Origin: an uncultured bacterium
Lineage (GTDB): Bacteria; Patescibacteriota; Minisyncoccia; UBA6257; 2-01-FULL-56-20
DNA length: 64,000 bases
Direction of reading: 5' to 3'
Assembly (NCBI GenBank): GCA_963718515.1
Contig: OY970354.1
Coordinates: forward strand, 758,808 to 822,807
Part shown: positions 56,401 to 60,000 of the stretch, piece by piece
Position numbering within the stretch: the first letter of the stretch is position 1
How the letters are laid out: the number at the start of each line of letters is the position of its first letter
Notes under the pieces: model-generated
Seen by the model: only the letters and a program-made list of their open reading frames with translations
What the model was told of the DNA's origin: nothing
Databases searched by the model: none
Position numbers and translations under genes: made by a program

Positions 56401-57030
56401 AGCCTTGAAGATATTTCCGAACTTGCGGGAAAGCGTGAAGTATTCGTTCTCGCTCAAGATCTGGCCGACGCGCAACTTCTCCAAATATTCTTTGGTGGTG
56501 TCCGCAGCATCTTCGATCTCCCCTTTTACCGTCTTGTCTTTATTGCCGACGGTCTTCAATTTGCCCTTCAATTCGCGATCGAGATCTTCGAGCGCCTGCC
56601 TTGCGGTTCTCTTCTTTGATGTCGGTGATGATATATGCGGAATAATAAATGACGCGCTCCAATTTCTGGGCGGAGACATCGAGCGCAAGCGAAAGGCGCG
56701 ACGGGATGCTCTTTAAGAACCAGATGTGCGACACCGGCGTTGCAAGCGCGATGTGGCCGATGCGCTCGCGGCGAACCGCCGCGCGCGTCACTTCAACTCC
56801 GCACTTATCGCAGACCACGCCCTTATAGCGAATGCGGCGGTATTTACCGCAGTAGCACTCATAATCTTTGGTCGGACCGAAGATGCGCTCGCTGAACAAG
56901 CCATCTTTTTCCGGACGCTGGGTGCGGTAGTTGATCGTTTCCGGCTTGATGACCTCGCCGTGCGACCAGCGCAAAATATCTTCCGCCGATGCAACGGTGA
57001 TGCGCAATGCCGAGAACGCATCCTTGCGAT
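53436..57030 (-). pseudogene. rpoC: RNA polymerase beta-prime portion of a fused rpoB-rpoC gene, with about 10 or more apparent frameshifts
   Basis: Consecutive minus-strand ORF fragments carry colinear RpoC motifs. In order these are [28 protein letters not shown], the zinc finger [111 protein letters not shown] and [14 protein letters not shown]. The fragments are 56540..57457, 56137..56688, 55866..56393, 55895..56200, 55600..55905, 55335..55841, 55202..55519, 54907..55269, 54401..54721, 53767..54453, 53594..53785 and 53436..53642. Confidence 0.85.
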
Positions 57031-60000
57031 CGCCTTCGTTCTCATAGAGCAGCTGGATGTTGAATCCGAGCGACTTCAATTCGTTCACGAGCACGTTGAA
57101 TGATGCCGGAACGTTCGGCTCTTTGATCGTCTCGCCGCGGATGATCGATTCGTATGCCGCGGCGCGGCCAACGACGTCGTCGGATTTGATCGTGAGCATT
57201 TCCTGGAGCGTGTGGCGTGCGCCATAGCCTTCCAGTGCCCAGACTTCCATTTCTCCGAAGCGCTGTCCGCCGAACTGCGCCTTGCCGCCGAGCGGCTGCT
57301 GGGTGATCAAAGAGTACGGACCGATCGAGCGCATGTGCGCCTTGTCTTCCACCAAGTGGTTGAGCTTCAACATGTAGATCTGCCCAACCGTCGCGCGGTT
57401 CTGGAACGCCTCGCCCGTGCGGCCGTCGAACAGCTTCATCTTTCCGTCTTCCGGCAAGACCGGCCTTCTTCAAGCTCGCCGCGAATCTCGGCTTCCGTCG
57501 CGGAATCCAATCCCGGCGTGATGGCGCGATAGCCAAGCTTCTGACGCGGCACAGCCAAGATGCGTTTCCAAAATCTGTCCGAGGTTCATACGGGAAACGA
57601 CGCCCAACGGATTCAAAATGATATCCACCGGCGTTCCATCTTCCAAGTACGGCATGTCTTCTACGGCGCGCACCTGTGAGATAACACCTTTGTTTCCGTG
57701 GCGGCCTGCGAGCTTGTCGCCCGCCTGCACTTTGCGCAGCTCCGCGATCTCAACCTGAATGCGGCGGATGATTCCCGGCTCCAGCTTGTCGCCACGTTCG
57801 CGGTCGAAGATCTTTACGTTCACCACGCGGCCGATCTTTCCGTGCGGAAGCGTGAGCGAAGTATCTTTCACGTCGCGTGCTTTGTCGCCGAAGATGGCGC
57901 GGAGCAAGCGCTCTTCTGAGGTGAGTTCCGATTCGCCTTTCGGAGAGATCTTTCCGACCAAAATATCGCCGGCTTTTACTTCGGCGCCGATGCGGACGAT
58001 TCCCTCTTCATCGAGGTTCTTTAATTTATCTTCCGAAACATTCGGAATGTCGTAGGTGGTAACTTCCGGACCAAGCTTGGTGTCGCGCACATCGCAGGAA
58101 TATTCATCGATATGGATGGAGGTGAAGCGATCCTGCTGAACGACGCGCTCCGAAAGGATGATGGCGTCTTCAAAGTTTGCGCCTTCCCATGAAACGAATG
58201 AGACGAGCAAGTTCTGGCCAAGCGCCAAAATGCCGTTCTCGATGGAAGGACCATCCACGAGGATCTGTCCTTTCTTGACCATCTGGCCGCGCGTAACGAG
58301 CGGCTTCTGGGAGATACAGGTGAACTGGTTCGAGCGCTTGAACTTTTCAAGCGTATAATTCTTGATCGCCTTCGGATATTTAACTTTAAGGTGTGCGCCG
58401 TCCACTTCGATGATCTCGCCGTTATCTTCGGCGACGATCACATAGCCCGAATCGAGCGCCACTTTTTCTTCCTGGCCCGTCGAAACATACGGTGCATCGG
58501 GCGTACGGAAACCACCGCCTGGCGTTGCATGTTCGAACCCATGAATGCGCGGTTCGCATCGTCGTGCTGGAGGAACGGAATAAGCGACGTCGCGACGGAA
58601 ATGAACTCGTGCGGTGCGACGTCGATAAGGTCAACTTCTTCCGGCGTGACCGTTCCCGGCTCGCCTTTGATGCGCGCTTCAAGCGTGGGGCCGATGAGCT
58701 TGCCATTCTCATCCTTCGGACTGCCGGCGTGCGTGATCTTATATTTCTCTTCTTCCGAAGCGTCGAACCAAACGAATTTCTTTCGTAACGACGCCGTTCG
58801 TCACTTTTGCGTACGGCGCCTCTAAGAAACCGAAATCATTGATGCGGGTATAGCTTGCGAGATAGTTGATAAGACCGATGTTCGAACCTTCCGGGGTTTG
58901 AATCGGACAGATGCGGCCGTAGTGCGAACGATGCACGTCGCGCACTTCAAAGCTCGCGCGCTCGCGCGTGAGACCGCCGGGACCGAGCGCGGAAATGCGG
59001 CGCTTGTGCTCCAGCTCCGCCAGCGGATTCACCTGATCCATGAACTGCGAAAGCTGGGATGATGCGAAAAATTCTTTGATGACCGCCGCGATCGGGCGGA
59101 AGTTCACGAGCTGTGCCGGCATCAAGTTGTCTTTGTCTTCCGTGGACATCCTGTCCTGGATGATACGGCGCAAGCGCGCGAGACCGATGCGCAAACGGCC
59201 CTGCAACAATTCGCCCACCGCTTTCAAGCGGCGGTTGCCCAAGTGGTCGATATCATCCGGCTCTGCTTCCGGATCGTTGTTGAGCTTGATGATCTCTTTG
59301 ACGATCGCGATCAAGATCCTCCGCATCAAGCAGCTTGTGTCGTCTTCTTTTGATCAAGCTCGAGGCGCTGGTTCATCTTGTAGCGGCCCACTTCGGAAAG
59401 GTCATAGCGGTCGGGGCGCTCGAACATTGCGGCGATAAGATTCTTTGCGGTATCGGCGCTGGCCGGATCGCCCGGGCGCAGGCGCTTGTAGATCTCAACA
59501 TATGATTCTGCCGCATCCTTCGCAACATCTTTTTTTAATGTCGCTTCTATATATTTGATAAGGCCGTTGTCGTCCTTCTCGAACGTCTTCTTGATCGTCT
59601 CCGTATCCATGCCGAAAATGCGGAGCAGGTCGGTGACCGGCACTTTGCGGTGACGGTCGATCTTGACGCTGATCATCGCCGTCGATGTCGGTCTCAAATT
59701 CAAGCCATGCGCCGCGGTTCGGAATGATCTTTGCGCCAAAAAGCTGGCGGCCGCGGTACGGCACGGACGTAAAGTACACGCCGGCCGAGCGGACGAGCTG
59801 TGACAACAACGACGCGCTCCACGCCGTTCACGATGAACGTGCCGCGGGTGGTCATGATCGGGAAATCGCCAAAATACACTTCCTGCTTGTGTTCGTTGCC
59901 GGTACGGTTATTTACCAAGCGCAGGGTACAGCGCAACGGCGCTTCATAGGTGGCTTCTTTATAGCGAGCGGTCGTCTCGTCATATTTCGGTTCGTCAAAG

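What the first reader, a model, noticed from the sequence alone, without database searches (positions are those of the whole stretch)
56940..57120. rpoB and rpoC are fused in one reading frame
Within the single uninterrupted ORF 56540..57457, the RpoB C-terminus ([24 protein letters not shown]...[22 protein letters not shown]) runs on without a stop. It continues directly into the RpoC N-terminus ([46 protein letters not shown]...[23 protein letters not shown]).

I re-translated the junction by hand (57000-57100) and found no stop and no frame change. Natural beta-beta' fusions are known from Helicobacter and Wolbachia. Otherwise they are unusual.
Basis: partly seen in the sequence, partly recalled or inferred. 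Interest (0 to 1): 0.6.

Follow-up and report, generated by a model that had tools for sequence, protein, structure and literature searches.

The report
Real rpoB-rpoC fusion in Parcubacteria
The two large RNA polymerase subunit genes really are joined into one gene here, as in a whole group of tiny uncultured Parcubacteria; this kind of fusion is already known from Helicobacter and Wolbachia, so it is a modest find, and the copy in this window is also peppered with assembly errors.

Summary
On the minus strand, ORF 56540-57457 reads from RpoB domains 6-7 into RpoC domain 1 with no stop. The join (...[21 protein letters not shown]..., about 57020-57049) has no spacer.

The fusion is real:
- 98 of the 120 best full-length RpoB-RpoC proteins (2,240-2,322 aa) have the same 61-residue junction span. 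They come from Parcubacteria (Liptonbacteria, Ryanbacteria, Paceibacterota) in NCBI, JGI, ENA and Logan.
- Two of them carry the identical junction peptide.
- One, P0223 (2,247 aa), is 93.8% identical, without gaps, to the repaired window gene.
- Other Patescibacteria and about 70 other bacteria have stop codons at this position.

The fusion arose independently. The protein is closer to unfused Patescibacteria (53-58%) than to fused Helicobacter (45%). It also fails the cut-offs of both NCBIfam fused-family models.

The cause is 20 single-base insertions and 2 deletions, and yceG next to it is broken as well. Removing them restores one stop-free ORF of about 2,245 codons. Three related 'contig_N' contigs have similar indels, mostly at other positions, while the JGI and MEGAHIT-named contigs are intact. 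This is most likely a consensus artefact.

Verdict: a new member of a known kind, of modest interest.

The parts
53436..60191 (-). The whole fused rpoB-rpoC gene as assembled: 6,756 nt, from ATG at 60191 to the stop codon at 53436-53438. It is broken into about 20 ORFs by 20 single-base insertions and 2 single-base deletions.
   Evidence: tblastn of the intact 2,281-aa L002 protein shows stepwise frame changes. Start and stop were located. After repair there is one open stretch of 2,247 codons without a stop (2,245 codons counted from the ATG), 93.8% identical and gapless to P0223.
57050..60191 (-). RpoB (beta) module.
   Evidence: The NCBIfam rpoB profile TIGR02013 ends, at its last position 1238 of 1238, on residue 136 of the junction fragment, which is window 57050. 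Pfam Rpb2_6 and Rpb2_7 also match here.
57236..57289 (-). RpoB landmark motif [18 protein letters not shown].
   Evidence: Seen in the translation. These residues are invariant in alignment A1.
57020..57049 (-). The join: ten codons, [10 protein letters not shown], linking the last RpoB strand to the first RpoC strand. There is no stop, no spacer and no start codon.
   Evidence: PDB matches put beta residue 1339 of 1342 at fragment residue 136 and beta' residue about 6 at residue 147. The DNA alignment of 8 contigs has no gaps here.
53436..57019 (-). RpoC (beta') module, through to the stop codon.
   Evidence: Pfam Rpb1_1 starts at fragment residue 147 and TIGR02386 at residue 151. tblastn segments continue to 53526. 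The stop codon was located.
56801..56857 (-). Beta' N-terminal zinc-binding motif C-Y-C-x12-C-x2-C ([19 protein letters not shown]).
   Evidence: Seen in the translation. C201, C216 and C219 are invariant and C203 nearly invariant in alignment A1.
56540..57457 (-). It starts just after one frameshift (57455-57459). Its last 22 codons, after ...IKEENRKA, are out of frame because of another frameshift at 56597-56600.
   Evidence: P0004 and the intact homologues continue ...[14 protein letters not shown]....
59801..59804 (-). Single-base insertion (GTT+G).
59675..59677 (-). Single-base insertion (GAT+G).
59337..59339 (-). Single-base insertion (ACG+A).
59311..59315 (-). Single-base insertion (CTTG).
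58773..58776 (-). Single-base insertion (ATT+C).
58498..58504 (-). Single-base deletion.
57541..57544 (-). Single-base insertion (GCG+T).
57468..57474 (-). Single-base insertion (CTTG), shared with L001.
57455..57459 (-). Single-base insertion (GGT+C / CTTG).
56597..56600 (-). Single-base insertion (GCA+G), shared with L001.
56339..56342 (-). Single-base insertion (GTT+G).
56198..56202 (-). Single-base insertion (CTTG).
55903..55907 (-). Single-base insertion (CTTG).
55806..55810 (-). Single-base insertion (CTTG).
55517..55521 (-). Single-base insertion (CTTG), shared with L001.
55275..55276 (-). Single-base insertion.
54910..54917 (-). Single-base insertion (AAA+G), shared with L001.
54753..54756 (-). 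Single-base insertion (CTG+C).
54431..54439 (-). Single-base insertion.
53796..53799 (-). Single-base insertion (TCG+C), shared with L001.
53778..53781 (-). Single-base insertion (GCA+G).
53640..53640 (-). Single-base deletion.

Best explanation
The window comes from a Parcubacteria-group (Paceibacterota, Patescibacteria) genome. In this lineage rpoB and rpoC are a single gene of about 2,245 codons.

The last beta-strand of beta (...FNIQLLY) is joined to the first strand of beta' ([10 protein letters not shown]...) by a loop of about 10 residues (ENEGDRKDA). There is no added linker. The rpoB stop codon, the intergenic spacer, the rpoC start codon and the few non-conserved N-terminal residues of beta' are all absent.

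Translation should therefore give one polypeptide of roughly 250 kDa that carries both halves of the catalytic core. This would fix beta:beta' stoichiometry at 1:1 and make their association intramolecular. It works because the beta C-terminus and the beta' N-terminus lie next to each other in the clamp of bacterial RNA polymerase.

The fusion is inherited within a sizeable Parcubacteria subclade and arose independently of the Helicobacter/Wolinella and Wolbachia fusions.

Shown here: the in-frame join, its conservation, its phylogenetic affinity, and intact full-length ORFs in relatives. Inferred: expression as a single polypeptide, and any functional benefit. The fusion may be nearly neutral.

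Separately, the roughly 22 frameshifts that fragment the gene in this window are most likely consensus errors of a long-read metagenome assembly. A plausible cause is that reads from co-occurring related strains pile up on this conserved locus, so that polymorphic sites are written twice. They are unlikely to be biological.
For: Junction:
- There is no stop across 56540-57457.
- RpoB domain 7 ends at residue 137 and RpoC domain 1 starts at residue 147.
- PDB beta chains match to within 3 residues of their C-terminus, and beta' chains match from residue 4-8.

Conservation:
- The intact ORF L002:172-7017 is 2,281 aa, on a MEGAHIT-named contig.
- All 120 best database hits are full-length fusions of 2,240-2,322 aa. 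They come from NCBI, JGI, ENA, Logan and UniRef and include Liptonbacteria and Ryanbacteria genomes (taxonomy).
- 98 of them have exactly the same 61-residue SFNVL...ETINYRT span. P0223 and P0226 have the window's exact peptide.
- The repaired window protein is 93.8% identical to P0223 over 2,247 aligned residues.
- The junction DNA has no gaps in 8 contigs, and the differences are mostly synonymous or conservative.

Contrast:
- 73 other loci have 1-6 stops between the two motifs. These include Saccharibacteria, Zambryskiibacteriota and other Paceibacterota.
- The 327-nt motif spacing is the shortest of all loci.

Independent origin:
- Identity is 52.7-57.7% to unfused Patescibacteria, against 45.4% to fused Helicobacter muridarum.
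- NF007172 scores 2,177 bits against a cut-off of 5,372. NF011417 scores 2,075 against 4,632. The rpoB and rpoC equivalog models pass.

Frameshifts as artefact:
- Removing 20 insertions and filling 2 deletions gives an open stretch of 2,247 codons with no stop.
- The window, L001, L083 and L084 are all ENA 'contig_N' records or resemble them. Each carries 6-22 single-base insertions, nearly all at its own positions.
- L085, L086, L087 and L002 carry none.
- Ten flanking genes are in a single frame.
- Most insertions duplicate a codon's third position with an alternative synonymous base.
- CTTG at Leu codons is found at or next to 14 of 65 insertions across the four contigs, against about 2.5 expected.
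Against: - No reads were available, so neither the junction nor the indels were checked against raw data.
- The window's gene is not one ORF as assembled.
- Expression as a single polypeptide is untested in any Parcubacterium.
- The AlphaFold model of the junction fragment was poor (mean pLDDT 41). Structural compatibility therefore rests on sequence alignment to solved RNAP chains, and on prior knowledge that E. coli tolerates a beta-beta' tether.
- The 'written-twice polymorphism' explanation for the insertions is an inference. A codon-phase test that used MAFFT gap placement was only weakly skewed (19, 12 and 11).
- I did not verify the sequencing platform of the intact JGI contigs.
Confidence: 0.9

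Rival explanations
1. The in-frame join is itself an assembly error. In this error-rich stretch, an indel or miscalled base removed the rpoB stop codon and brought rpoC into frame. In reality the genes are separate.
For: The local indel density is very high, at 22 in 6.76 kb. Many short 'fusion' proteins in the database are clearly artefacts of this kind, for example P0007 and P0009, which read through out-of-frame spacers.
Against: - No indel lies between 57455 and 56597 relative to the intact ORFs.
- The junction peptide is identical to that of the intact 2,247-aa P0223 and of P0226.
- The same junction length occurs in 98 of the full-length homologues examined, which come from independent sources.
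- There is no room for a stop codon, ribosome-binding site and start codon in a junction that is already the shortest of 80 loci.
Confidence: 0.02
2. The frameshifts are real. Either the window holds a decaying pseudogene copy of rpoBC, or the gene needs about 20 recoding events (ribosomal frameshifts, transcriptional slippage or editing) to be expressed.
For: - The indels are present in the sequence as given.
- Three related contigs show similar indels.
- Five insertion positions are shared between the window and L001.
- The insertions are non-random: they cluster at codon boundaries and in CTTG contexts.
Against: - After the single bases are removed there is not one in-frame stop in the 2,247-codon open stretch, and identity to an intact homologue is 93.8%. 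That fits strong purifying selection, not decay.
- The gene sits in its normal syntenic place (ftsW-yceG-rpoBC-rpsF-ssb-rplK), as in relatives with intact genes.
- Most indel positions differ between contigs (51 of 58 insertion positions are private).
- All four contigs outside that 'contig_N' series are clean.
- The errors spill into the neighbouring yceG, and rpoA is also hit.
- No conserved slippery motif is apparent.
Confidence: 0.02
3. The ORF is fused, but the cell still makes separate beta and beta' proteins. This could happen by internal initiation near the junction or by proteolytic cleavage of the loop.
For: Nothing found here supports this directly. It cannot be excluded from sequence alone. 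The loop is the most variable part of the junction and tolerates insertions of up to 13 residues in some members.
Against: - There is no conserved in-frame Met, Val or Leu start codon in the junction across the roughly 110 homologues whose junction was extracted.
- The only ATG in the window's junction DNA is out of frame.
- From prior knowledge, not tested here: the Helicobacter fusion protein is present as a single tethered polypeptide.
Confidence: 0.08

Closest known systems
Helicobacter/Wolinella fused RpoBC (NCBIfam NF007172 / PRK09603; Zakharova et al. 1999, as cited in PMC1557499 and PMC7483510)
   Same: One ORF encodes beta followed by beta', joined C-terminus to N-terminus. The Helicobacter muridarum locus L076 also has no stop across the junction.
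   Different: - Different lineage and an independent event: only 45% identity, against 53-58% to unfused Patescibacteria.
- The score of 2,177 bits is well below the family cut-off of 5,372.
- The junction is about 14-15 residues shorter: 327 against 372 nt between motifs, and 277 residues against 291 profile positions.
- The whole protein is about 2,245 aa against about 2,890 aa.
Wolbachia fused RpoBC (NCBIfam NF011417 / PRK14844)
   Same: The same beta-beta' single-ORF architecture.
   Different: The score of 2,075 bits is below the cut-off of 4,632. The profile is 2,839 positions long against about 2,245 aa here. Wolbachia is an alphaproteobacterial endosymbiont, which is an unrelated lineage.
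Other fused rpoBC lineages in sequence databases, e.g. Mycoplasma wenyonii WP_014849752 (UniRef name 'Multifunctional fusion protein')
   Same: These are proteins of 2,000 aa or more that match across the junction, nearly all in one stretch. There are 17 such representatives besides the Paceibacterial one in the 50%-identity library.
   Different: All are only 33-50% identical to anything in my comparison panel, and none is closest to the Paceibacterial fusion. Apart from M. wenyonii, the ten I looked up carry no source name; the rest were not looked up.
Engineered E. coli beta-beta' tether (Severinov and co-workers, 1997; recalled from memory, not read here)
   Same: It shows that a covalent link from the beta C-terminus to the beta' N-terminus is compatible with assembly and function. 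This is the mechanistic basis assumed here.
   Different: It is artificial. The natural Paceibacterial join uses no added linker and drops the first few beta' residues.
Ordinary separate rpoB and rpoC of other Patescibacteria (L003 and L031 Saccharibacteria, L004, L005, L008, L009 Zambryskiibacteriota)
   Same: These are the closest sequence relatives outside the fused clade, at 53-58% identity. They share the gene order and the Patescibacteria-type ETINYRTQ motif.
   Different: They have 1-3 stop codons and a spacer of 3 to about 15 codons between rpoB and rpoC. In these loci the two genes happen to be in the same frame, so the fused state is only one or two substitutions away. The way the loci were selected favoured in-frame cases.

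Membership tests
Fused beta-beta' RNA polymerase large subunit (architecture class) | The RpoB C-terminal domain and the RpoC N-terminal domain lie in one reading frame with no stop between them. | tested here: met
   The window 56540-57457(-) translation has no stop. PF04560 covers residues 63-137 and PF04997 starts at residue 147 of the same fragment.
Fused beta-beta' RNA polymerase large subunit (architecture class) | One continuous ORF covers all RpoB and RpoC domains. | tested here: inconclusive
   Not met as assembled, because 22 frameshifting indels break the gene. Met after single-base repair, which gives an open stretch of 2,247 codons with no stop. Met in the relatives P0223, P0213 and L002 and in all 120 best hits. 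Reads are needed to settle the state of the window itself.
Fused beta-beta' RNA polymerase large subunit (architecture class) | Made as a single tethered polypeptide. | not testable with these tools
   Needs proteomics or immunoblotting. Sequence shows only that the junction has no conserved internal start codon.
NCBIfam NF007172 (PRK09603), Helicobacter-type beta/beta' equivalog | Whole-protein score at or above the curated cut-off of 5,372 bits. | tested here: not met
   P0223 scores 2,176.9 bits.
NCBIfam NF011417 (PRK14844), Wolbachia-type beta/beta' equivalog | Whole-protein score at or above the curated cut-off of 4,632 bits. | tested here: not met
   P0223 scores 2,075.5 bits.
Bacterial RpoB (TIGR02013 / NF001616) | Score above the curated cut-off, and a match that runs to the end of the profile. 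| tested here: met
   P0223 scores 1,503.8 against 801 and 1,522.3 against 896. The window fragment matches TIGR02013 positions 1103-1238 of 1238.
Bacterial RpoC (TIGR02386) | Score above the curated cut-off, and a match from the start of the profile. | tested here: met
   P0223 scores 1,529.2 against 963.5. The window fragment matches from profile position 2. The zinc motif CYC...CDKC is present.

The most novel reading that the evidence does not exclude
The roughly 22 single-base indels are genuinely in the DNA, rather than being consensus errors. In that case the only RNA polymerase large-subunit gene of this organism could be expressed only through about 20 recoding events (frameshifting, slippage or editing). 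Alternatively, the population would carry a freshly inactivated copy. The evidence argues strongly against this but cannot exclude it without reads.

A milder reading is much more probable, at about 0.6-0.7. On that reading the fusion is an undescribed rare genomic change that marks a Parcubacteria subclade including Liptonbacteria and Ryanbacteria.
Probability: 0.02. Interest if true: 0.9.

Novelty: new member of a known kind. Interest (0 to 1): 0.3.

Why it matters
A beta-beta' fusion is a rare, essentially irreversible genomic change in a universal essential gene. That makes it useful as a clade marker in the poorly resolved Parcubacteria/Paceibacteria radiation. It is present in Liptonbacteria, Ryanbacteria and many unnamed lineages, and absent in Zambryskiibacteriota, Saccharibacteria and others.

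It also adds an independent natural replicate, with the most compact junction of the loci compared here, to the Helicobacter and Wolbachia cases. More replicates help in asking whether tethering the two large RNAP subunits is adaptive, for example in reduced genomes, or simply tolerated.

There are two practical consequences:
- Current annotation misses the architecture. NCBI and JGI names for these proteins in the database are mostly 'subunit beta'' or 'hypothetical protein', and the two NCBIfam fused models do not reach them.
- Single-copy marker pipelines that expect separate rpoB and rpoC may mis-score these genomes.

The frameshift cluster is a warning about local consensus quality at conserved loci in long-read metagenome assemblies.

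Tried and rejected
- **Alternative genetic code (in-frame UGA).** The break at 57470-57472 is a TGA in the same nominal frame as the next ORF. However, the true reading frame shifts twice nearby, the other breaks are frame changes, and the other long ORFs of the window are intact under table 11. Rejected.
- **First protein search with the 305-aa ORF.** It returned only short junction-spanning fragments of 300-530 aa. Many of them are themselves frameshift artefacts from unrelated bacteria, so the list was misleading about how common real fusions are. The full-length query gave the useful picture.
- **Codon-phase test of the insertions using MAFFT gap columns.** The skew was weak (19, 12 and 11) because gap placement is arbitrary.
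- **Deletion-scan script.** It lost frame after about 55.3 kb because the pairwise alignment missed an insertion. Only its first 14 sites are usable.
- **AlphaFold2 of the 286-aa junction fragment with a 28-row alignment.** Mean pLDDT was 41. Only the strand-loop-strand at residues 132-155 reached 64-71. No fold search was run, because a low-confidence model gives meaningless matches.
- **Literature.** No paper in the held library describes an rpoB-rpoC fusion in CPR, Patescibacteria or Parcubacteria. Zakharova 1999 and Lane & Darst 2010 could not be opened.
- **Methylation-motif explanation for the indels.** The window encodes C5-methylases. I rejected this as the main cause because the errors are confined to the rpoBC-yceG stretch and rpoA rather than spread across the window.
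Full report
**1. The observation**

The feature is on the minus strand. ORF 56540-57457 (305 codons) translates without a stop. It runs from ...[24 protein letters not shown]...[24 protein letters not shown] into [46 protein letters not shown]...[24 protein letters not shown].

- Pfam puts RpoB domains 6 and 7 on residues 3-137 and RpoC domain 1 from residue 147.
- The NCBIfam rpoB profile ends on residue 136, at its own last position. The rpoC profile starts at residue 151, at its position 2.
- Against solved structures, residues 1-136 match E. 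coli beta 1204-1339 of 1342. Residues from about 147 match beta' from residue 4-8.
- The join is therefore about ten codons, [10 protein letters not shown], at window 57020-57049. It has no stop, spacer or start codon.

**2.

rpoB and rpoC are each about 1,100-1,200 codons, yet the ORF is only 305. The ORF table shows the whole locus cut into about 20 short ORFs in alternating frames.

- Ungapped tblastn with an intact homologue shows the frame stepping by one base about 20 times.
- DNA alignments to intact relatives place 20 single-base insertions and 2 single-base deletions between the ATG at 60191 and the stop at 53436-53438.
- None lies between 57455 and 56597, so the junction sits in a clean 858-nt stretch.
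Relatives continue ...[14 protein letters not shown]....

**3. Is the fusion real?**

Yes.

- The nearest species representative in GTDB is L002, Candidatus Paceibacterota SMAG_U14927, on a k141-named contig. It has one intact ORF of 2,281 aa covering both genes.
- A database search with that protein returned 120 listed clusters, and the list was truncated. All are full-length fusions of 2,240-2,322 aa with every RpoB and RpoC Pfam domain. They come from NCBI, JGI, ENA, Logan and UniRef.
- Named members are Candidatus Liptonbacteria, Candidatus Ryanbacteria, Minisyncoccia, 'Pacebacteria' and Paceibacterota. NCBI places both Liptonbacteria and Ryanbacteria in the Parcubacteria group.
- I extracted the segment from SFNVL to ETINYRT from these proteins. 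In 98 of them it is exactly 61 residues, with the pattern ...N[IV].P.Y....[DA][RH][KR][DE].F.AL.I..AS... A few have extra residues in the loop, up to 74.
- P0223 and P0226 (the latter a cluster of 56 sequences) carry the window's junction peptide letter for letter.
- Once the single-base indels are removed, the window gene is 93.8% identical to P0223 over 2,247 residues with no gap.
- P0223 sits on a 382-kb JGI contig with the same neighbours: ftsW, yceG, rpoBC, rpsF, ssb, rplK.
- The junction DNA of eight contigs aligns without gaps, and the differences are mostly synonymous or conservative.

By contrast, 73 other loci have 1-6 stops between the two motifs. They span many phyla and include other Patescibacteria (Saccharibacteria, Zambryskiibacteriota, other Paceibacterota). 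Only Helicobacter muridarum, a known fusion, shares the stop-free state. The 327-nt motif spacing of the Paceibacterial fusion is the shortest of all loci; the next shortest is 354 nt.

**4. Relation to known fusions**

The literature in the held library describes rpoB-rpoC fusion in Helicobacter and Wolinella, and in Wolbachia. It is called a 'rare genetic event' in PMC1557499, and PMC7483510 cites Lane & Darst 2010 and Zakharova 1999.

NCBIfam has one equivalog model for each. P0223 scores 2,177 bits against a cut-off of 5,372 for NF007172. It scores 2,075 against 4,632 for NF011417. It passes the ordinary rpoB and rpoC equivalogs. This probably explains why many of the NCBI- and JGI-named hits are called 'subunit beta'' (that step is my inference).

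- The repaired window protein is 52.7-57.7% identical to unfused Patescibacteria.
- It is 45.4% identical to fused H. muridarum.
- It is 43-47.5% identical to other bacteria.

The gene is therefore of Patescibacterial descent and the fusion is an independent event. In the unfused Patescibacteria I fetched, rpoB and rpoC are separated by only 3 to about 15 codons and lie in the same frame. Losing one or two stop codons would be enough to fuse them. The way the loci were selected favours such in-frame cases, so this is suggestive only.

Fusions are also less rare than the textbook pair suggests. A search of 1.84 billion 50%-identity representatives returned one representative for the Paceibacterial clade (P0213). 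It also returned 17 further proteins of 2,000 aa or more that match across the junction. One is Mycoplasma wenyonii. The others are unnamed, 33-50% identical to my panel, and none is closest to the Paceibacterial fusion.

**5. How it most likely works**

- Shown: one reading frame, conserved under coding constraint.
- Inferred: one polypeptide of about 250 kDa, in which the last strand of beta and the first strand of beta' are linked by a loop of about 10 residues.

The number of residues between the conserved cores is 10. That is about what a direct end-to-end join of minimal termini would give: E. coli would contribute 3 + 5 = 8. No linker was added.

A low-confidence AlphaFold model (mean pLDDT 41) nevertheless places its best-scoring segment exactly here. 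It shows a strand-loop-strand at residues 132-137 and 150-155 (pLDDT 64-71). I treat this as weak support only.

That such a tether is compatible with function rests on prior knowledge: the engineered E. coli tether, and the Helicobacter enzyme. The expected consequences are fixed 1:1 synthesis and intramolecular assembly of the clamp. Whether that is advantageous or merely tolerated is open.

No conserved internal start codon exists in the junction. Separate translation of beta' is therefore unlikely.

**6. The frameshifts**

Removing the 20 inserted bases and filling the 2 missing ones gives an open stretch of 2,247 codons with no stop. That is not what a decaying pseudogene looks like.

- The three closest junction hits sit on ENA records from one run of accession numbers: ERZ25039472, ERZ25039480 and ERZ25039529. 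All are named contig_N.
- Each of these contigs has 6-22 single-base insertions in rpoBC, plus some deletions, while its flanking genes are intact.
- 51 of 58 insertion positions are private to one contig. Five are shared between the window and L001.
- The four other contigs (three JGI, one MEGAHIT-named) have none.
- In the window, ten flanking genes are in a single frame: ftsW, a 241-aa gene, rpsF, ssb, rplK, tmk, cmk, gatB, miaA and thrS.
- The 3' half of yceG, next to rpoB, is also broken. So is rpoA at 875-1589.
- Most insertions have the form 'codon + alternative third base', such as GTT+G, GAT+G, ATT+C, GCA+G and GGT+C.
- Six of the window's insertions lie in or next to CTTG at Leu codons, where deleting any one base still gives Leu.
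- Across the four contigs, CTTG is at or next to 14 of 65 insertions, against about 2.5 expected.

My reading, which is an inference, is as follows. Reads from co-occurring related strains are recruited to this conserved locus, and a pile-up consensus writes both alleles of polymorphic sites. Reads would settle this.

**7. Verdict**

This is a genuine, inherited beta-beta' fusion in a Parcubacteria subclade. It is independent of the Helicobacter and Wolbachia fusions and has the most compact junction of the loci compared here. Fused sequences are already in public databases, including genome bins named in the style of the Rifle aquifer metagenome series. I found no description of the fusion in six literature searches.

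It is a new member of a known kind. It has modest interest as a clade marker and as an annotation gap. The fragmentation of the gene in this window is most likely technical.

Noticed in passing
window 53436-60955 (rpoBC plus the 3' half of yceG), and 875-1589 (rpoA): Frameshifting single-base indels are concentrated in one stretch of about 7.5 kb. There are 22 in rpoBC and about 3 frame changes in yceG. rpoA is also split into two ORFs (878-1201 and 1149-1589) that both hit the RpoA domains. Ten other flanking genes are in a single frame. Three related ENA 'contig_N' contigs (L001, L083, L084) show similar indels in rpoBC, mostly at other positions. This looks like a locus-specific consensus artefact of long-read metagenome assembly.
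   Followed up: partly
window ~41200-51700: This roughly 10-kb segment is absent from the syntenic relative L086, where tmk and rplK are only about 600 nt apart. It carries:
- a tyrosine integrase (41449-42390, minus strand);
- an NgoFVII-like restriction enzyme domain (43238-44419, minus strand);
- two C5 cytosine DNA methyltransferases (44355-45365 and 46128-47192, minus strand);
- several ORFs with no Pfam match.
It is probably an integrated mobile element carrying restriction-modification genes.
   Followed up: partly
50%-identity protein representatives P0242, P0251, P0259, P0261, P0264-P0266, P0269-P0271, P0285, P0289, P0300, P0305, P0314, P0331, P0379: There are 17 further representatives of 2,000 aa or more that match across the rpoB-rpoC junction. 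That makes more than a dozen divergent fused lineages beyond the Paceibacterial one. One is Mycoplasma wenyonii. Of the ten I looked up, the other nine carry no source name. The set was not checked for Helicobacter or Wolbachia members. Natural beta-beta' fusion seems to have arisen repeatedly.
   Followed up: partly
proteins P0007, P0009 and many others among the hits: The protein database holds many short 'RpoB-RpoC' proteins of 300-530 aa from unrelated bacteria, including entries labelled E. coli and Lupinus. P0007 and P0009, which I read, span the junction only because frameshift errors read through the spacer, and the others are probably the same kind. These false fusions could mislead searches for real ones.
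   Followed up: no
window 57550-57552 (codon TGT in ...ETHLGCAA...): The window has Cys where the intact relative L002, L001 and the A1 consensus have Trp (ETHLGWAA). This may be a base-substitution error in the same low-quality stretch.
   Followed up: no
window 63833-63946 (-) and 23734-23805 (+): A 5S rRNA gene and a tRNA-Gly(CCC). These are the only Rfam and ARAGORN hits in the 64 kb.
   Followed up: no
L082 (NCBI GCA_038055885.1, contig JBBUHB010000139.1) 2521-2996: In this relative the RpoB part is listed as an 803-aa ORF ending at 2521. The junction-spanning gene is called only from 2996. There may be a break or an insertion in rpoB here. I did not examine it.
   Followed up: no
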